Shown: in pieces, positions 41,873-48,249 of the stretch
Layout of the letters: the number at the start of each line of letters is the position of its first letter
Numbering within the stretch: the stretch's first letter is position 1
IMG/VR virus record: IMGVR_UViG_3300021420_000014
Reading direction: 5' to 3' (one strand)
DNA from: a virus
DNA: 64,000 nucleotides
Made by a program: the position numbers and the translations under genes
The notes under the pieces: model-generated
Told to the model about the DNA's origin: nothing
The model's database searches: none
What the model saw: the letters and a program-made list of their open reading frames with translations, nothing else

Positions 41873-43459
41873 ATGCAAACTTCGTTTTTAGAGCGTTTTC
41901 GTGCTGCTCGTAGAGTTAGTACCCCGCTCATTGCAATTCGCACGGCGGATCCTGCCGCAACGGTCGCCGATATCGCCAGAGATAAGGCTCAGGTTGCGGC
42001 CATGATCCTGTGGGATTCCGTCTCAGGCATAGTGGGCGTCAACGAACCGGACGGTAAAAACGTCGTCCGGCAACTGGTAAAACCAAACCGTGACCGTGAT
42101 AACGATGAAGATCGTCTGGAAGATCCTTTGGCTTTCCTTGTGAAGATAGCTGCGAAGGAAGCAACCCCGAGAGGCACTATAATCTTTGCATACAACCTGA
42201 ATCTCTTCTTTAACGATCATCGCGTCATACAGGCGGTTTGGAACCTTCGCGATAAACTCAAACAGGAAAATAAGACTTTGGTCCTGCTTTGCCCGTCCAT
42301 CACTTTGCCTCCGCAGCTGGCGCAAGATGTATTGATTCTGGACGAACCACTTCCGGACGCGGCTGGCCTGGCAGCTATTGTGGGCGAAATGTATTTGGCA
42401 GGAAATCTTCCATCGCCGAAACAGGAAATCCTTGAACGTGCCGTCGAAGCACTCTCCGGCCTCGCAGCTTTTCCCGCAGAGCAGGTTACGGCCATGAGCA
42501 TCACCGAAAAGGGCCTTGATATTGAAAGCTTATGGGAACGCAAACGCCAGCAAATCGAAATGACGCCTGGCCTGAGCATCTGGCGCGGCAAGGATGACTT
42601 CAAGAGCGTTGTCGGGCTCGATAACGCCAAGGAATTTCATCGCCGTCGCGGCATGGGGCCTTTGCGGCGTCGCACCATCGTATTCATTGACGAGATCGAC
42701 AAGCATATGTCCAATTTTGGCGCGATCGGCACCGGAGATACCACAACCGAAATGGTTGGCACTCTTCTGACAGACATGGAAGAAACCGAAGCAGAAGGGA
42801 GTGCGTTCCTCGGCGTCGCTGGAGCCGGCAAAACATTACTTGCTAAAGCGATTGCCAATGAGTGGGGGGTCCCGTTGATCTTCTTCGATCTGGCCGGCAT
42901 GAAAGCTTCGCACGTCGGCCAATCGGGCGAGAACATTCGCAATGCCCTGAAGGTGGTCCATGCCGTAAGTCAGGATCAGGTGTACTACATCTGTACGTGT
43001 AATAGATTCGATTCGTTGCCGCCGGAGATGCGACGCAGGTTTAGATCTGGCACGTTCTTTTTCGATCTGCCGACCAAACCGGAAAAAGAGGCGGCTTGGA
43101 AAATCTACCAGGAGAAATACAAGATAGAGGGACCGCGGCCAGACGATTTAGGCTGGACCGCTGCAGAAATCCGCAATTGCTGCTATAACGCGCATGTCTT
43201 GGCATGTCCGCTAGTGGACGCGGCCAAGTATATCGTGCCCATTTCCGTTTCCTCTGCGGATAAGATCAAGGATCTTAGACGACAGGCAGATGGAAACTTT
43301 ATTTCTGCCACCTACTCCGGTCTATATCATGCGCCGGAAGGTATCGAACCTGAGCCAGTACCAGATATGGTTGTAGCGATCGGAGTCATTCCAGCCAAGC
43401 CGAGACGCAAGATCATGCCTGAACCTGGTAACGGCGGCAAAAAAGAGCAGGTGAATTAA
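41873..43459 (+). CDS. Ycf46-like AAA+ ATPase with permuted Walker B/Walker A order
   Basis: IVFIDEIDK at 42677 precedes GVAGAGKT at 42812; TCN..LPPEMRRRF..FFFDLP; C-terminal KPRRKI. Confidence 0.85.
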   Translation: MQTSFLERFRAARRVSTPLIAIRTADPAATVADIARDKAQVAAMILWDSVSGIVGVNEPDGKNVVRQLVKPNRDRDNDEDRLEDPLAFLVKIAAKEATPRGTIIFAYNLNLFFNDHRVIQAVWNLRDKLKQENKTLVLLCPSITLPPQLAQDVLILDEPLPDAAGLAAIVGEMYLAGNLPSPKQEILERAVEALSGLAAFPAEQVTAMSITEKGLDIESLWERKRQQIEMTPGLSIWRGKDDFKSVVGLDNAKEFHRRRGMGPLRRRTIVFIDEIDKHMSNFGAIGTGDTTTEMVGTLLTDMEETEAEGSAFLGVAGAGKTLLAKAIANEWGVPLIFFDLAGMKASHVGQSGENIRNALKVVHAVSQDQVYYICTCNRFDSLPPEMRRRFRSGTFFFDLPTKPEKEAAWKIYQEKYKIEGPRPDDLGWTAAEIRNCCYNAHVLACPLVDAAKYIVPISVSSADKIKDLRRQADGNFISATYSGLYHAPEGIEPEPVPDMVVAIGVIPAKPRRKIMPEPGNGGKKEQVN

Positions 43460-43755
43460 TGGCGCGCGCGTTCCTTCATCAATGGGAAGTTCGGAGCCAT
43501 ACAGGTGATGATGTTTATAAGGTGACCGAGTACTTAGACGGCACATGGGCCTGCGCATGTCCACGGTGGAAGTTTTGCAAAGCCCCAAAACTGGATTGTA
43601 AACATATCCTTGGCGTCAAGGCCGAAGAACCACATCAGGCAATGCCGATCACGCAGATGCAGGAACAGGCACGGCGACAGATGATACGGCCACCTGAGCC
43701 TACATCGCATCCCGTGTTTGTTTTGCAAACTCGTCGTGTCATTCAATTGGGTTGA
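43459..43755 (+). CDS. SWIM zinc-finger protein 1
   Basis: YKV..WACACP..CKHI; ends QTRRVIQLG. Confidence 0.8.
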   Translation: MARAFLHQWEVRSHTGDDVYKVTEYLDGTWACACPRWKFCKAPKLDCKHILGVKAEEPHQAMPITQMQEQARRQMIRPPEPTSHPVFVLQTRRVIQLG

Positions 43756-43761
43756 CCAAAA

Positions 43762-44142
43762 ATGATTACAAAAGCGTGGAGGTATCCGAACGGCACGATT
43801 GAATTTGGTATTGTAACTCTTCGTGGCCCAGCCAATTTAGTTCGCGCTAACCAAGATGGTACTTGGCAATGCGATTGCTCAGGCGATCCACCAAAAATCT
43901 GGACACCGACCGCAAAGTTCGGTCCAGGTCATCCTTGGATAAAGCCGGCGTGTGAACACATTGCGGAGGCGTTTGTGCATCACCGGAAAGGAGAAGGCAG
44001 GAGAGAACAACTCACAGCGGAAGCTAAGCACAGCGCGGAAGTAAAGAAACAGTATGACGAGGAAATGAAGATCAGACGTGAAAAAGACGACACACCGATG
44101 GCGGAATTACGGCCAAGAAGAAAAATCACATTCGACAAATGA
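43762..44142 (+). CDS. SWIM zinc-finger protein 2
   Basis: WQCDC..CEHI; ends LRPRRKITFDK. Confidence 0.7.
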   Translation: MITKAWRYPNGTIEFGIVTLRGPANLVRANQDGTWQCDCSGDPPKIWTPTAKFGPGHPWIKPACEHIAEAFVHHRKGEGRREQLTAEAKHSAEVKKQYDEEMKIRREKDDTPMAELRPRRKITFDK

Positions 44143-44158
44143 AAGAGAGGGTAGCTAT

Positions 44159-44563
44159 ACGAGTCACACCTCGGACATAGAATTAGAAGTCACGGACATC
44201 AACTGCCTAGAGGATGCCGTAAAAAGCATCCCTGGGCTGGAATTCCTGCGCGGCCAAAAAACGTTCAAGCAGTTTGGTGGCCAGCAAGGTCGCTGCGATC
44301 ATGCAATTCGCGTAGCAAATAACAGCCGTGCGTTTGAAATAGGGGTCTCCGAGACAGGCAGGCCTGGTCGCCACAGATTGCAAACCGATTTTTATGGTGG
44401 CGGTTACGGGCTCGAAGAACTTGTTGGTCCAAACGCTAACAAACTGAAGCAAGCATACACCGTCGCCTATTCCAAGAAGCAATGGAAGAAGAAAGGCTTC
44501 AAGGTTCGAACAACGGTCGACGCGCAAGGCTTTATCGACGTCATAGCCACGCGACGAACATAA
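44159..44563 (+). CDS. DUF1257/Ycf35-like protein (proposed ACG start)
   Basis: (M)SHTSDIELEVTDINCLEDAV..LKQAY..GF; GAGGG SD before ACG. Confidence 0.75.
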   Translation, partial: TSHTSDIELEVTDINCLEDAVKSIPGLEFLRGQKTFKQFGGQQGRCDHAIRVANNSRAFEIGVSETGRPGRHRLQTDFYGGGYGLEELVGPNANKLKQAYTVAYSKKQWKKKGFKVRTTVDAQGFIDVIATRRT

Positions 44564-44581
44564 GTTGCGAGGTGACTTAAG

Positions 44582-44965
44582 TTGGTCTACACAATTTCTC
44601 CGCTTGAGTTCGGCGAACGCCGCGATATCCGCGGGAGACGCATTCCTATCTATGTAGATGCCGATGGGCAGATAGGATGGACGCTTTGTAGCGGTGGAGC
44701 AGCGTTTCGTGTTTTGCGCACTGCCGATCACATGTGGATTTGCAATTGTCCGAACGGACAGGTGAACGGTCGTCGAATAGTTGGCGATCCAGTATGCGAT
44801 CACATAACGACGGTTCCTCAGAGTCCTGCGTACGCAAATAGTGAATATCTAAATCAGCTCGACGGTCTGATTCGAACTGAACAACAGATCGTCTCTCGAA
44901 ATGAGGCACGAAAGGAACGAGAAGAATACGTTCTACGGCCACGACGAATAATAAATCTCAAATAA
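44582..44965 (+). CDS. SWIM zinc-finger protein 3
   Basis: WICNCP..CDHI; ends LRPRRIINLK; GAGGTG SD + TTG. Confidence 0.7.
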   Translation: MVYTISPLEFGERRDIRGRRIPIYVDADGQIGWTLCSGGAAFRVLRTADHMWICNCPNGQVNGRRIVGDPVCDHITTVPQSPAYANSEYLNQLDGLIRTEQQIVSRNEARKEREEYVLRPRRIINLK

Positions 44966-44974
44966 GGAGATCAC

Positions 44975-45169
44975 ATGGCAGAGGAAATCGTACGAATCCG
45001 CGTTTCGCCCGAAGGCAACGCGACTATCAGCGTCAAGGGCGTGAAGGGAAGATCATGCAAGGAACTCACAAAGACTTTTGAAGAAGGCCTTGGAAAGGTG
45101 GTGAGCAGTGAAAACACAAGCGAAATGTATGAAAAAGAAACAGAGGTTCAGATTAAGAATAGGGCCTGA
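44975..45169 (+). CDS. DUF2997 protein
   Basis: IRVSPEGNATISVKGVKGRSCKELTKTFEEGLG..TSEMY. Confidence 0.85.
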   Translation: MAEEIVRIRVSPEGNATISVKGVKGRSCKELTKTFEEGLGKVVSSENTSEMYEKETEVQIKNRA

Positions 45170-45174
45170 CGCGG

Positions 45175-45508
45175 ATGCCTACTAAGCCAGTATTAGTTTG
45201 TTGACCTTAGACCAAAACGCTGCGACGAACTCATCCAAGGTTACCTAACGGCTGTTGGCCATACCTGCGATACGCCATTGTGCATTCAGCCTGAGCACCT
45301 TATTGAAGGTACTCAGAAGGAAAATATACATGATTGTGTAGTACGCGGGCGGGCCAGGAACGGCAACATTAAATTAACTCCAGAGAAGTGGGACGCAATT
45401 AGAAAATCGACAAAATCTCACACAGCCATAGCCAAAGAATACGGAATCAGTCGTCACCAAGTCGGCAGAATAAAGCGAGGAGAAAGCGGGAGGGTTTATA
45501 ACCCATGA
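45175..45508 (+). pseudogene. truncated/frameshifted HNH endonuclease
   Basis: HTCDTPLCIQPEHLIEGTQKEN + HTH; in-frame TAG at 45194; ATG 45175 is out of frame. Confidence 0.55.
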
Positions 45509-45777: not shown

Positions 45778-45874
45778 TTTCGCGTGAGCGAAACGGCGGA
45801 CACAACCAAATCCGATCTGAAGCCCAGGCCCCAAGGTAGTGTCCGCCGATTTGAAGCAAAAGGGAGAATCAAAA

Positions 45875-46957
45875 ATGAGATCAGCACAACGTAGTGCAAT
45901 CCAGAAGTCAGCAGCACAGAAGGCTTGGGAGACTCGCAAGAGGAACCGCAGCAATCCGCCACTGCCGCCAAAAAAGACAATTAAACTGCAACCATTGCCG
46001 GCGATCAAATTGCCGACGAATCCGGAACTTGTTTCGCCCGATCAGATCATGGCGCGCACCTGCGTTATGGTCCTCACTTTCCATGGCATCGGCAATCGCC
46101 GCAAGGTGGACACTGACAACATAGAAGTCAAGTCAAGTGACAAGCGCGCCGCAGCCAAAGAAAGCGAAGTGGACAAGGCGTGGTTACACCTGACGAAGCG
46201 GCTGATCGAAGCGGAAGAACTAGACAAGATCACGTCCAGCTACGGTGAGATGCGCCGGTACGTTGAGAACTTGGCTTTGCCGTCGTACATTAAGCGCGGC
46301 GTATACATCATGCCGACCGCATTCGTGATGCAAGTGGACGCCAAACTCAAGGAAGGCACTGCGACCGTTCAACCATTCATCAAATCGCTCGGCAAACGCT
46401 ACGAAGCCATCAAAGCAGAATCTCAAAAGAGGCTCGGTCCCCAATATAACGAGGCCGACTACATGACCAGAGAACAACTGATGGCTGCCTTTCAAGTGTC
46501 GTGGCGGTTCCTTTACGTGGATAGCGCACCGAACTTGGCCGGTGTATCAAAGGAAATCTACGAAGAGGAACGCCGAAAAGCGCAGCAAGATTGGGCAGAT
46601 CTCGCCCAAGTTCACAGACAGATGCTTCGCAGCCACATGTCGGAGTTCGTCAATCACTTGGCAGATAGGCTTGCGCCCAACGAAGAAGGCCGGCTCAAAA
46701 TGTTCAAAGAAGGCTCTGTCACGAAGTTCCAGCAGTTTTTGGAAAACTTCGAGCCACGCAATATCGGCAACGATCTTCAAATGAAGGTTCTTGTCGATCG
46801 GGCAAAACAGTTGCTCACCGGCAACGACGCCGAGTCTTTGCGAACCAACGACGAACTGCGGGCACATGTAAGGCAAGGTTTTGAAAACATCAAAGCCGCC
46901 CTAGACACGATGGTTGTTTTGAAACCGCGACGGATCATTACATTTGACAGATCGTAG
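45875..46957 (+). CDS. DUF3150-like helical protein with C-terminal KPRRIITF tag
   Basis: CAAAAGGGAGAATCAAAAATG start context; ALP..GVYIMP, YNEADY; cluster context. Confidence 0.65.
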   Translation: MRSAQRSAIQKSAAQKAWETRKRNRSNPPLPPKKTIKLQPLPAIKLPTNPELVSPDQIMARTCVMVLTFHGIGNRRKVDTDNIEVKSSDKRAAAKESEVDKAWLHLTKRLIEAEELDKITSSYGEMRRYVENLALPSYIKRGVYIMPTAFVMQVDAKLKEGTATVQPFIKSLGKRYEAIKAESQKRLGPQYNEADYMTREQLMAAFQVSWRFLYVDSAPNLAGVSKEIYEEERRKAQQDWADLAQVHRQMLRSHMSEFVNHLADRLAPNEEGRLKMFKEGSVTKFQQFLENFEPRNIGNDLQMKVLVDRAKQLLTGNDAESLRTNDELRAHVRQGFENIKAALDTMVVLKPRRIITFDRS

Positions 46958-46972
46958 CAAGTAACATACAAT
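46944..46972 (+). promoter_or_regulatory. sigma70 promoter TTGACA-N17-TACAAT overlapping end of upstream gene
   Basis: TTGACAGATCGTAGC identical to 63000. Confidence 0.75.
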
Positions 46973-46988
46973 AAGAGAGTGTAGAGCC

Positions 46989-47369
46989 ATGAGAAAGCCG
47001 GAGCCATTTGCCAAAGTAAAAGTGGGGCCGGGCCAACCGGCCCCGCGGCGTTTTAAGACACTGGTGGATGGCAGTGAATTGGTTGCTTTGTACAACGAGT
47101 CGAATACGATGTGGGACATTTATCTGGATGGCTATCGAATCGGATATGTCAAACACAGAATGGAGTGGCTGGCACTCCTTCAGTTGGGGGCACGATTTAA
47201 TCATCGCGTGATTGGCAAATTTGTGCGATGGCAGGATGCGGTCAATCACGTAATCACCACATTTCTGGCTCATCGGGCAAATTGGTCGGCCAGTAAGGCT
47301 CACCTATTTTTTAGCAAGGCTGTGAAGTTAGAAGATGTCGAGCAGGAACAGGTACCGCGACGCCGCTAA
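46989..47369 (+). CDS. hypothetical protein
   Basis: First ORF after promoter. Confidence 0.5.
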   Translation: MRKPEPFAKVKVGPGQPAPRRFKTLVDGSELVALYNESNTMWDIYLDGYRIGYVKHRMEWLALLQLGARFNHRVIGKFVRWQDAVNHVITTFLAHRANWSASKAHLFFSKAVKLEDVEQEQVPRRR

Positions 47370-47391
47370 GTTCGCAAAAGGGAGAATCGAA

Positions 47392-48249
47392 ATGGGAGCG
47401 CATACCGTTTGGAAGGGACATTTGTCTTTCGGCTTGTTGAATATCCCGGTACGGTTGTACGTAGGAGCCCGGGACAAACGCGTTGAACTGCATACCTATC
47501 ACACCAAATGCAATGGTCCGGTCAAAGAACCGAAGTATTGCAACGCCTGCCAAGAGATGCTGGCTCCGGAACAAATCTACAAGGGCTATGCAATCGACGG
47601 GAAGATCGTTCAGATTACCAAAGAAGAGATCGAACAGCTTACGCCAAGCAGCGGAAAAGTGTTGGAGATTACAGAATGCGTCAAGTGGGCCGACGTCGAC
47701 CCACTCTATCTGGCCGAATCCTTTTATTTACTGCCAGAAGATGTCGGCCGCAAAGCCTACGGTCTCCTCGTCAAGACGCTCACCGATACTGGCCGTGTCG
47801 CCATTGCTCAACTAGCCAAGTCAGGCAGGGAGAACGTAATTCTCTTGCGGCCCAAAGGCAATGGGCTGATCGTTCATTACATTTGGTATCCGACAGAGAT
47901 TGCAAGACTCGCTGAATTCGAAGATCTGGAAGCGGTCGCGTTCACAGCGTCCGAACTGAAATTGGCACGACAACTGGCCGAAAGTTTCGATTCCGAATTC
48001 AATCCCGAGATATTCGAAGATGGCTACTACATGCGCTTAACTCAATTGATCGAATCCAAGCTGGACAAGTCGGTCCAGGCACCGCAAGCGGTCAATGTTG
48101 CAGTCGCTCCTCCGGCCCAAGATCTCATGGCCGCGCTGTCTGCTTCACTCGCTACTCCCAAGCCGCGTCGGTCGATCAAGTTGAATGCTGAGCCAGAGCC
48201 GGCGAAAGTTGCTGAAAAAACCAAGGGCAAGAAAGGCAAGGCGGCCTAA
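47392..48249 (+). CDS. ku: Ku DNA end-binding protein
   Basis: WKGHLSFGLLNIPVRLY..KGY..YLLP..DLMAALSASL. Confidence 0.92.
   Translation: MGAHTVWKGHLSFGLLNIPVRLYVGARDKRVELHTYHTKCNGPVKEPKYCNACQEMLAPEQIYKGYAIDGKIVQITKEEIEQLTPSSGKVLEITECVKWADVDPLYLAESFYLLPEDVGRKAYGLLVKTLTDTGRVAIAQLAKSGRENVILLRPKGNGLIVHYIWYPTEIARLAEFEDLEAVAFTASELKLARQLAESFDSEFNPEIFEDGYYMRLTQLIESKLDKSVQAPQAVNVAVAPPAQDLMAALSASLATPKPRRSIKLNAEPEPAKVAEKTKGKKGKAA

What the first reader, a model, noticed from the sequence alone, without database searches (positions are those of the whole stretch)
42590..43080. AAA+ ATPase with Walker B placed before Walker A (internal permutation)
Seen order: VVGLDNAKEF, then IVFIDEIDK..GDTTTEMVGTLLTDMEE (Walker B strand plus following helix, 42677), then AFLGVAGAGKTLLAKAIANEWGVPL..SHVGQSGENIRNAL (Walker A and pore loop, 42812), then VYYICTCN..LPPEMRRRF (sensor 1 and Arg fingers). 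Established: in classical AAA domains, including Ycf46, the hhhhDE segment lies between the pore-loop helix and the sensor-1 strand. Here it is absent from that position and sits upstream of Walker A, in frame, with catalytic residues intact. Inference: a beta-alpha unit was transposed while keeping the active site, giving a rewired P-loop topology.
Basis: partly seen in the sequence, partly recalled or inferred. Interest (0 to 1): 0.88.

Follow-up and report, generated by a model that had tools for sequence, protein, structure and literature searches.

The report
AAA+ ATPase with transposed Walker B unit
This phage gene belongs to a large, previously unremarked natural family of AAA+ ATPases in which the strand-plus-helix unit carrying the catalytic Walker B acids has been moved in front of the ATP-binding P-loop, apparently without changing the three-dimensional fold, which makes it a natural experiment in rewiring one of biology's best-studied motor domains.

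Summary
The 528-residue ORF at 41873-43459 (+) has the order helix a0, Walker B strand + helix a3, Walker A/P-loop, pore loop, sensor 1, Arg fingers. It is not a mis-assembly. All 266 aligned homologues keep this order, including 146 representatives of 50%-identity clusters, as do 67 of 79 bacterial-genome loci and 74 of 80 IMG/VR loci by motif scan. These include the finished Nitrospira moscoviensis chromosome and the isolated phage Tunturi_3. E274, K320 and N377 are invariant. Phage relatives with the same N-terminal domain, lid and partner genes (Rhizobium phage L338C gp050, mycobacteriophage Corndog gp96) have the canonical order. The roughly 40-residue Walker B block aligns to theirs and leaves a 39-residue gap at the canonical site. 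One tree branch separates the two forms. AlphaFold2 models are confident (pLDDT 91 and 96) and match classical AAA domains with about 200 of 263 residues aligned. Independent covariation places the moved strand beside sensor-1 strand b4, and its start next to the end of helix a2, as in the canonical fold. The Asp/Glu-to-Lys distance could not be measured because no coordinates were available. I found no description in the searchable literature. The scan's first readers noted the same feature on three other genomes, none followed up. Verdict: new topological variant of a known fold; function of its AAA-DUF1257-DUF2997 cassette unknown.

The parts
41873..43459 (+). Whole gene: 528-aa AAA+ ATPase with a degenerate N-terminal AAA-like domain, a permuted AAA core, a lid and a disordered tail
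   Evidence: ORF and translation. Pfam AAA 63.1 bits. The whole model aligns to p97/Cdc48 D1+D2 with Z 18.9 and 397 residues.
41873..42559 (+). N-terminal domain (residues 1-229): alpha/beta plus helical, AAA-like (D1-like), no Walker motifs
   Evidence: AF2 secondary structure. VIA aligns model 2-486 to the p97 D1-D2 range 209-764. It is homologous to the N-domain of canonical relatives.
42608..42637 (+). Helix a0 region (residues 246-255), which now leads into the Walker B strand instead of the P-loop strand
   Evidence: Covaries with P-loop position 319 and with helix a1.
42659..42793 (+). Transposed unit (residues 263-307): strand b3 with Walker B D273/E274, a loop equivalent to pore loop 2, and helix a3
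   Evidence: Aligns to the Walker B block of canonical L338C gp050 (358-395, E 3e-6) and of Cdc48. D273 is D in 262 and E in 4 of 266; E274 is kept in 266/266. DCA contacts go to b4, a2, pore loop 1 and a4.
42677..42700 (+). Walker B motif proper (residues 269-276)
   Evidence: Direct reading of the sequence. Conservation.
42794..42973 (+). Walker A unit (residues 308-367): b1, P-loop 314-321, a1, b2, pore loop 1 (344-349) and a2
   Evidence: Aligns to canonical 297-356 and to Cdc48 524-577. K320 and G349 are kept in 266/266.
42812..42835 (+). Walker A / P-loop motif (residues 314-321)
42980..43039 (+). Strand b4 with sensor 1 N377, followed by helix a4 with Arg fingers R387-R389
   Evidence: N377 266/266, R389 265/266, R388 247/266. 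Follows helix a2 directly, with no Walker B between them.
43070..43330 (+). Helical lid subdomain (residues 400-486) with the classical-clade G-W-T-G/A-A-E-I motif
   Evidence: AF2 helices 402-472. Near-invariant W428, T429, G430, A431, E432 and I433.
43331..43456 (+). Low-confidence C-terminal tail (residues 487-528)
   Evidence: pLDDT 44-66. Poorly conserved.
44159..44563 (+). DUF1257-like partner gene (ORF opens at 44078)
   Evidence: BLASTP to the L007 neighbour, E 1e-22, which is itself a weak DUF1257 hit. A family HMM finds such a gene in 59/79 genome loci and 63/80 viral loci.
44975..45169 (+). DUF2997-like small partner gene (64 aa)
   Evidence: ORF. Aligns with the DUF2997 proteins of Tunturi_3 and L338C.

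Best explanation
The gene encodes a member of a large natural family of classical-clade AAA+ ATPases. In this family the beta3-alpha3 unit (Walker B strand, pore-loop-2-like loop, helix a3) has swapped places in the chain with the beta1-alpha1-beta2-alpha2 unit (P-loop, pore loop 1). The chain therefore runs a0, b3, a3, b1, a1, b2, a2, b4, a4, b5, lid. It is an internal, non-circular permutation, because the protein termini and flanking domains are unchanged.

The three-dimensional fold is most likely the canonical one, with sheet order 5-1-4-3-2. Strands b1, b4 and b3 are neighbours in the sheet, so only three loops at the same edge need re-targeting, each by one or two strand spacings. All crossovers can stay right-handed, with every helix on its usual face.

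The active site would then be built as usual. K320/T321 of the P-loop, D273/E274 from the moved strand and sensor 1 N377 act in cis. R388/R389 come from the neighbouring subunit of a ring. I infer an active, ring-forming ATP-driven remodelling motor with an inactive D1-like N-terminal tier, working with the co-encoded DUF1257 and DUF2997 proteins in phages and other mobile elements.

The rearrangement arose once from a canonical Ycf46/COG0464-like ancestor. The most economical route is tandem duplication of the [b1..a3] segment followed by loss of the first half of copy 1 and the second half of copy 2.

Shown: the order, its conservation, its single origin and the neighbourhood of the moved unit by covariation. 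Inferred: exact geometry, ATPase activity, oligomer, route of origin and biological role.
For: - Order and block homology.
- Family-wide fixation: 1966 hits in the 90% clusters. There are 5786 hits, 1096 of them at E<=1e-30, among 50% representatives, and the best 150 are all single collinear matches. Canonical relatives score at most 92 bits (E 3.5e-21), so the 1e-30 set is probably all permuted.
- All 266 aligned sequences share the order, with E274, K320, N377 and G349 at 100%.
- Independent assemblies: 67/79 genome loci, including the Nitrospira moscoviensis NSP M-1 chromosome, and 74/80 IMG/VR loci. The isolated phage Tunturi_3 also has it.
- Canonical sisters with the same N-domain, lid and DUF1257/DUF2997 partners.
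- Single origin: permuted (61 rows) and canonical (42 rows) are split by one branch with SH-aLRT 100.
- Fold: AF2 pLDDT 91.1 / pTM 0.83 for the full protein and 96.0 / 0.92 for the domain. Best solved matches are spastin, NVL, Vps4, Rix7 and FtsH, at Z 14.5-15.8, rmsd 2.7-3.2 A and 186-207 of 263 residues. That is the number expected if a sequential aligner skips the roughly 44-residue moved unit. An ESM Atlas model of a family member matches at TM 0.96.
- Covariation (pseudo-likelihood DCA, Meff 192): the top pair is T268-S366, the start of b3 with the end of a2, which are adjacent in the canonical chain but 98 residues apart here. Also b3-b4 (V270-Y372, I275-C374), a3-a2, a3-pore loop 1, a3-a4, b3-a1 and b1-b5. 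Thirty pairs exceed the maximum of a column-shuffled control, and 11 of them involve the moved unit.
- Two members carry inteins inside the P-loop and inside sensor 1, sites typical of functional ATPase motifs.
- Canonical strand order is taken from PMC5039278.
Against: - No coordinates were available, so the Asp/Glu-to-Lys distance and the hydrogen-bond register of the moved strand were not measured.
- AF2 and ESMFold may be biased towards the familiar AAA fold.
- DCA depth is low (Meff/L about 1.15), no b3-b2 pair ranks high, and the shuffle control ignores phylogeny.
- Half of the family has Ala rather than Gly before the P-loop Lys, and pore loop 1 lacks the usual aromatic residue (His here, Leu in most). 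Activity or substrate handling may therefore differ.
- No biochemical data exist for any member that I could find.
Confidence: 0.85

Rival explanations
1. Altered fold or domain swap. The moved b3-a3 unit does not occupy the canonical slot in its own chain. It might pack elsewhere, or insert into the sheet of a neighbouring protomer, so that the active site is built differently or in trans.
For: Coordinates could not be inspected. No b3-b2 covariation pair appears among the top pairs. Sequential structure aligners leave about 55-65 residues unaligned.
Against: Covariation links the unit to b4, a2, pore loop 1, a4 and a1, exactly its canonical neighbours. The a3-to-b1 linker is only about 4-5 residues, which forces a3 to end next to b1 of the same chain. 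The monomer models are very confident across the unit, with pLDDT 93-97 except in the loop at 280-288. DCA cannot by itself tell cis from trans contacts.
Confidence: 0.08
2. Inactive relic. The upstream hydrophobic-Asp-Glu segment is a leftover or chance motif, and the protein is a pseudo-ATPase that only binds nucleotide or serves as a scaffold.
For: The P-loop Gly before Lys is Ala in 131 of 266 members. Pore loop 1 is non-aromatic. No assay exists.
Against: The block is homologous to true Walker B blocks over about 40 residues, including helix a3. E274 is kept in 266/266, D273 is D in 262 and E in 4, and K320, N377 and R389 are essentially invariant across sequences down to 35% identity. 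Inteins target the P-loop and sensor 1.
Confidence: 0.05
3. Assembly or gene-calling artefact that scrambled a canonical AAA gene in this contig.
For: The window comes from a metagenome-derived virus record. The read-level check could not be run.
Against: The same order occurs in hundreds of independently assembled sequences from JGI, ENA, NCBI and Logan. It also occurs in a finished isolate chromosome (Nitrospira moscoviensis NSP M-1) and an isolated phage genome (Tunturi_3). The frame is open and uninterrupted.
Confidence: 0.01

Closest known systems
Canonical-order phage and mobile-element 'SpoVK/Ycf46/Vps4 family' AAA ATPases: Rhizobium phage vB_RleS_L338C gp050 (AHC30467.1), mycobacteriophage Corndog gp96 (AAN02028.1); PHROG 8638
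   Same: Same architecture: a degenerate N-terminal AAA-like domain, a classical AAA core and a lid with the G-x-T/S-G-A-E-I motif. Identity is 21-25% over residues about 131-490. L338C gp050 has the same downstream partners, DUF1257 and DUF2997. Both occur in phages, and Corndog also carries a Ku gene nearby, which I recall from the literature rather than tested here.
   Different: These proteins run Walker A, pore loop, Walker B, sensor 1 (103 of 120 by motif scan). The window's protein has the roughly 40-residue Walker B block moved ahead of Walker A. The two forms sit on opposite sides of one fully supported tree branch.
Classical-clade AAA ATPases with solved structures (spastin 6p07, Vps4 6ap1, NVL 9bji, Rix7 7swl, p97/Cdc48 D1-D2, FtsH 4ww0)
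   Same: Best structural matches: Z 14.5-15.8 for the domain and Z 18.9 for the two-tier whole protein against p97. Walker A, Walker B, sensor 1, double Arg finger and lid are all present. There is no sensor-2 Arg motif, as in the classical clade.
   Different: Chain connectivity of the core differs. Pore loop 1 reads His/Leu-Val-Gly instead of aromatic-hydrophobic-Gly. The N-terminal tier has no nucleotide motifs. No structure of this family or of Ycf46 was found by sequence search.
Circularly permuted P-loop NTPases (cpGTPases such as YlqF/RsgA; recalled from the literature, not tested here), and the scan's permuted Sak4-like ATPase (e1-3447200)
   Same: They are precedents showing that P-loop domains tolerate changes in the order of their motifs along the chain while keeping the fold.
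   Different: Those are circular permutations that create new termini. Here the termini and flanking domains are untouched, and two internal segments have exchanged places, which amounts to a circular permutation of an internal sub-segment. I found no such case reported for the AAA+ core.

Membership tests
AAA (Pfam PF00004), classical clade | Score above the Pfam gathering threshold | tested here: met
   63.1 bits against a 21.2 cut-off, but split into 3 stretches.
AAA (Pfam PF00004), classical clade | Walker A GxxxxGK[ST] | tested here: met
   Residues 314-321. K320 is kept in 266/266. Position 319 is Gly here but Ala in 131 of 266 relatives.
AAA (Pfam PF00004), classical clade | Walker B hhhhDE with catalytic Glu | tested here: met
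   Residues 269-274. E274 is kept in 266/266 and D273 is D in 262 and E in 4. Homologous to the Walker B blocks of Cdc48 and L338C gp050.
AAA (Pfam PF00004), classical clade | Collinear order Walker A, then Walker B, then sensor 1 along the chain | tested here: not met
   Walker B (269-276) precedes Walker A (314-321). No Walker B lies between a2 and b4.
AAA (Pfam PF00004), classical clade | Sensor 1 polar residue and second region of homology with Arg fingers | tested here: met
   N377 266/266, R388 247/266, R389 265/266.
AAA (Pfam PF00004), classical clade | alpha-beta-alpha core plus helical lid resembling solved AAA domains | tested here: met
   Z 15.8, rmsd 2.7 A and 197 aligned to spastin. 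Z 15.6, rmsd 3.1 A and 206 aligned to NVL. Model pLDDT 96.
AAA (Pfam PF00004), classical clade | Sheet order b5-b1-b4-b3-b2 with the Walker B strand between b4 and b2 | tested here: inconclusive
   Supported by covariation: b3-b4 pairs, start of b3 with end of a2, and b1-b5. Also supported by elimination from the structure alignments.
AAA (Pfam PF00004), classical clade | Pore loop 1 aromatic-hydrophobic-Gly | tested here: not met
   His347-Val348-Gly349 here. The family consensus is Leu-Val-Gly. G349 is invariant.
Ycf46/COG0464-like phage AAA ATPases (PHROG 8638; L338C gp050, Corndog gp96) | Homologous N-terminal domain and lid | tested here: met
   tblastn covers residues 131-490. Alignment A3. 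PHROG 8638 at E 1.6e-40 in 4 stretches.
Ycf46/COG0464-like phage AAA ATPases (PHROG 8638; L338C gp050, Corndog gp96) | Neighbouring DUF1257 and DUF2997 genes | tested here: met
   Window 44159-44563 and 44975-45169. L338C has DUF1257 at E 4.8e-9 and DUF2997 at E 2.5e-5. Found in 59/79 genome loci and 63/80 viral loci.
Ycf46/COG0464-like phage AAA ATPases (PHROG 8638; L338C gp050, Corndog gp96) | Canonical motif order | tested here: not met
   The two forms are separate sides of one branch.
Circularly permuted P-loop NTPases | Permutation creates new N- and C-termini of the domain | tested here: not met
   Helix a0 and the N-domain precede the core, and b4-b5 and the lid follow it, exactly as in canonical relatives. 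Only two internal blocks are exchanged.
Known anti-phage defence systems (PADLOC) | Full-length match to a system component | tested here: inconclusive
   Only partial P-loop-region hits to IetA (E 3e-7, about 48 residues). The partner genes gave no hits.

The most novel reading that the evidence does not exclude
The rewiring is not neutral. The pore-loop-2/helix-a3 unit is now tied covalently to the P-loop strand instead of the sensor-1 strand. The pore-loop-1 helix a2 is now tied to the sensor-1 strand instead of the Walker B strand. The family may therefore have changed how nucleotide state is transmitted to the substrate-gripping loops. On this reading it is a mechanistically distinct AAA motor, and the AAA-DUF1257-DUF2997 cassette is an uncharacterised machine that phages, plasmids and integrative elements use when establishing themselves in a host.
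Probability: 0.2. Interest if true: 0.85.

Novelty: new variant of a known kind. Interest (0 to 1): 0.72.

Why it matters
The AAA+ core is one of the most intensively studied protein folds, and its motif order is treated as invariant in classification, in HMMs and in reviews (PMC5039278 and PMC7973254 mention no permutation).

This family is large. About a thousand 50%-identity clusters probably belong to it, spread across Acidobacteriota, Nitrospirota, Armatimonadota, Myxococcota, Planctomycetota and their phages. It has swapped two internal beta-alpha units while keeping every catalytic residue. Canonical sister proteins are still attached to the same partner genes.

That combination offers a clean natural system for three questions. 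How can Rossmann-like and P-loop folds be rewired? Is chain connectivity important for allosteric coupling in AAA motors? How do such non-circular permutations arise?

It also has a practical consequence. Profile methods split these proteins into fragments, for example 'AAA (faint)' in precomputed Pfam, so the family is under-annotated.

Tried and rejected
- Complex prediction on three copies of residues 228-490 with ATP gave no verdict (score 0.12, mark 0.42). It says nothing for or against ring formation.
- Model coordinates are not placed in the Python box, so no distances could be measured.
- Mean-field DCA was dominated by gap and indel artefacts and was discarded. A pseudo-likelihood version that treats gaps as missing was used instead.
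- Literature searches for permuted AAA+ or P-loop domains, Walker B before Walker A, Ycf46 with phage, and DUF1257/DUF2997 found no description of this arrangement. The cyanobacterial papers only list DUF2997-DUF1257(ycf35)-fed7 clusters.
- NCBIfam and PADLOC gave only partial P-loop-region hits.
- A motif scan for living intermediates carrying Walker B both before and after Walker A found only three chance matches among 386 sequences.
- I considered that the upstream block might belong to the N-terminal D1-like domain. I rejected this because it follows helix a0 of the second domain and covaries with second-domain elements.
Full report
**1. What is in the sequence**

The finding lies inside a single uninterrupted ORF, 41873-43459 on the + strand, 528 residues. 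The window is part of a complete 164,879-bp virus record with direct terminal repeats, and the gene occurs once in it. Reading the translation, the order is:

- helix a0 motif, residues 246-255
- a hydrophobic strand ending in Asp273-Glu274 (Walker B), residues 269-276
- a Gly-rich loop and a long helix, residues 289-304
- the P-loop, residues 314-321, with Lys320
- strand b2 and the pore-loop-1 segment ending in Gly349
- helix a2
- then, directly, the sensor-1 strand, residues 370-377, with Asn377
- an Arg triplet, residues 387-389

**2. The order is truly non-collinear with canonical AAA**

- phmmer against all PDB chains aligns query 307-360 to Cdc48 524-577, and the upstream query 267-313 to the downstream Cdc48 584-632.
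- Pfam AAA is well above threshold but split into three stretches.
- BLASTP against a canonical-order relative (P0121, Rhizobium phage L338C gp050) is cleaner still. Residues 269-307 match its 358-395 (E 3e-6). Residues 308-364 and 370-415 match its 297-356 and 397-443, with a 39-residue gap exactly where that protein has its Walker B block.
- Alignments A3 and A5 show the same thing for mycobacteriophage Corndog gp96.

**3. It is not an artefact**

- The word-indexed search found 1966 homologues, and 112 of the best 120 passed a strict motif-order scan.
- The exhaustive search of 1.84 billion 50%-identity representatives found 5786 hits, 1096 of them at E<=1e-30. The best 150 all match as a single collinear stretch over essentially the whole protein.
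- Canonical relatives score at most 92 bits (E 3.5e-21 at that library size), so the 1e-30 set is probably all permuted.
- In a 266-sequence alignment every row has the permuted order. Glu274, Lys320, Gly349 and Asn377 are invariant. Asp273 is Asp in 262 rows and Glu in 4. Arg389 is kept in 265 of 266.
- The species-level genome collection gave at least 200 loci. Of the 79 kept, 67 pass the motif-order scan and the rest are mostly truncated. They come mostly from Acidobacteriota (Terriglobia, Bryobacteraceae). Others are from Armatimonadota, Nitrospirota, Myxococcota, Planctomycetota, Dormibacterota, Chloroflexota and Bacillota.
- They include the finished chromosome of Nitrospira moscoviensis NSP M-1.
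- IMG/VR gave at least 124 viral contigs. Of the 80 kept, 74 pass as permuted and none as canonical.
- The isolated Tunturiibacter phage Tunturi_3 gp103 is permuted too.

**4. Relation to canonical proteins**

L338C gp050 and its 1092 relatives (annotated SpoVK/Ycf46/Vps4 family) and Corndog gp96 share the N-terminal domain, the AAA blocks and the lid with the window's protein, but run in canonical order.

I moved the Walker B block of the canonical sequences, in a scratch alignment only, so that homologous blocks align. A maximum-likelihood tree of 61 permuted and 42 canonical sequences then separates the two states by a single branch with SH-aLRT 100, which is one change of state. The canonical order is universal in AAA+ and other ASCE P-loop proteins (PMC5039278), so the permuted state is derived and arose once.

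The junctions are compatible with tandem duplication of the segment [b1-a1-b2-a2][b3-a3], followed by loss of the first half of copy 1 and the second half of copy 2. This is inference. No intermediate was found among 386 sequences.

**5. Fold**

- AlphaFold2 with a 120-row alignment gives pLDDT 91.1 and pTM 0.83 for the whole protein. A 150-row alignment of the domain alone (residues 228-490) gives pLDDT 96.0 and pTM 0.92.
- The element order is strand 268-272, helix 289-304, strand 308-314, helix 320-331, strand 335-338, helix 350-366, strand 370-376, helix 384-389, strand 393-397, then the lid.
- The whole model superposes on the D1-D2 tandem of p97/Cdc48 (Z 18.9, 397 residues). The N-terminal 229 residues are therefore a degenerate, motif-less AAA-like tier.
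- The domain model's best matches among 48,161 PDB representatives are all classical-clade AAA domains: spastin Z 15.8, rmsd 2.7 A, 197 aligned; NVL Z 15.6, 206 aligned; then Vps4, Rix7, Pex1/6 and FtsH.
- About 200 of 263 residues align at under 3.2 A. This is what a sequence-order-dependent aligner should give if every element except the roughly 44-residue moved unit sits in its canonical place. That leaves the slot between b4 and b2 to be filled by the only remaining strand, 268-272.
- An ESM Atlas model of an acidobacterial family member matches at TM 0.96, and a viral, presumably canonical, cluster at TM 0.74.
- I could not read coordinates.

**6. Independent evidence from covariation**

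A pseudo-likelihood coupling analysis of the 266 natural sequences (columns 236-402, Meff 192, gaps treated as missing) gave these results:

- The strongest pair is Thr268-Ser366. This is the residue opening the Walker B strand paired with the end of helix a2. The two positions are covalently adjacent in canonical AAA proteins but 98 residues apart here.
- b3 with b4: 270-372 and 275-374.
- a3 with a2: 293-352, 301-363, 305-363 and 297-355.
- a3 with pore loop 1: 293-341 and 291-344.
- a3 with a4: 295-383.
- b3 with a1: 271-324.
- b1 with b5: 312-397.
- a0 with the P-loop and with a1.

A column-shuffled control has a maximum score of 0.130. Thirty observed pairs exceed it, and 11 of these join the moved unit to b4, a2, pore loop 1 or a4.

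These are the canonical neighbours of b3 and a3 in a 5-1-4-3-2 sheet. By the right-handed-crossover rule the new connections (b3 to b1 via a3, and b2 to b4 via a2) keep each helix on its usual face. There are three caveats. The alignment depth is modest. The shuffle ignores phylogeny. Covariation cannot separate cis from trans contacts, although the 4-5-residue a3-b1 linker makes trans insertion unlikely.

**7. How it most likely works**

All catalytic elements of a classical AAA ATPase are present and under strong purifying selection: P-loop Lys/Thr, Walker B Asp/Glu, sensor 1 Asn, trans-acting Arg fingers, the lid motif, and a pore loop ending in an invariant Gly.

Two relatives carry inteins. 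One is an HNH-type intein inside the P-loop. The other is a LAGLIDADG-type intein inside sensor 1. Inteins characteristically home to functional sites.

I therefore read the protein as an active, ring-forming, two-tier AAA remodelling motor whose upper tier is catalytically dead. ATPase activity and oligomeric state are inferred. The one complex prediction gave no verdict.

There are two deviations. Pore loop 1 is His/Leu-Val-Gly rather than aromatic-hydrophobic-Gly. Half of the family has Ala before the P-loop Lys.

**8. Context and likely role**

- In this phage the gene is followed by small SWIM-like ORFs, a DUF1257-like gene (44159-44563), a DUF2997-like gene (44975-45169), a DUF3150-like gene (45839-46957) and Ku (47335-48249).
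- A DUF1257-like gene lies within 3-4 kb on the same strand in 59 of 79 bacterial loci and 63 of 80 viral loci, usually followed at once by a DUF2997-like gene.
- In one soil contig the trio sits next to a ThiF/E2/ubiquitin-like PRTRC cassette, a GmrSD gene and DUF3150.
- The canonical L338C gp050 has the same two partners. The permuted and canonical ATPases therefore appear to do the same job in a three-gene cassette carried by phages and other mobile elements.
- What that job is remains unknown. PADLOC and NCBIfam give no system-level match, and I found no literature on it.

**9. Novelty**

Full-text searches for permuted AAA+ or P-loop domains, or for Walker B preceding Walker A, returned nothing relevant. 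Two AAA+ structure reviews do not mention permutation. The searchable library excludes much subscription literature, so prior mention cannot be excluded.

Within this scan, first readers noted the same feature on three other genomes (e1-5734839, e1-5736244, e1-3271132). None had been followed up.

I rate it a new topological variant of a known fold. It is real, widespread and easily testable, with an unknown biological role.

Noticed in passing
P0354 and P0256 (homologues): Two family members carry inteins exactly in catalytic motifs. One is a 278-aa HNH-type intein after the residue equivalent to G317, inside the P-loop. The other is a 401-aa LAGLIDADG-type intein after the residue equivalent to T375, inside sensor 1.
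   Followed up: partly
window 43459-45169 and 45839-48249; loci L005, L007, L003, L002: There is a conserved AAA + DUF1257-like + DUF2997-like cassette, here interleaved with three small SWIM-like ORFs and followed by DUF3150-like and Ku genes. The same partners accompany both the permuted and the canonical-order ATPases. Its function is unknown.
   Followed up: partly
L005 64-7716 (JGI soil contig): The permuted ATPase cassette sits beside a PRTRC-type ThiF/E2/ubiquitin-like cassette, Rad52, a GmrSD nuclease, a radical SAM gene and pEK499_p136. This looks like an integrative or plasmid-like element rather than a phage.
   Followed up: no
alignment position 319 of P0001 (window 42827-42829): The Gly preceding the P-loop Lys is Ala in 131 of 266 family members, and Ser, Thr or Cys in a further 22. 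This is an unusual relaxation of the GK[ST] signature in an otherwise invariant site.
   Followed up: no
L011, L016, L055, L074 (one MAG); L022, L030, L034 (another MAG): Several acidobacterial MAGs carry three to five separate copies of the permuted ATPase gene on different contigs. This suggests multiple resident mobile elements or prophages.
   Followed up: no
window 43331-43456 (residues 487-528): The C-terminal tail is predicted disordered (pLDDT 44-66). It contains the Pro-Arg-Arg-type motif that another first-reader note reports at the ends of several neighbouring proteins. I did not test that claim.
   Followed up: no
window 45278-45508: A 76-aa ORF between the DUF2997-like gene and the next conserved gene looks like a fragment of an HNH or helix-turn-helix protein. 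It was not examined.
   Followed up: no
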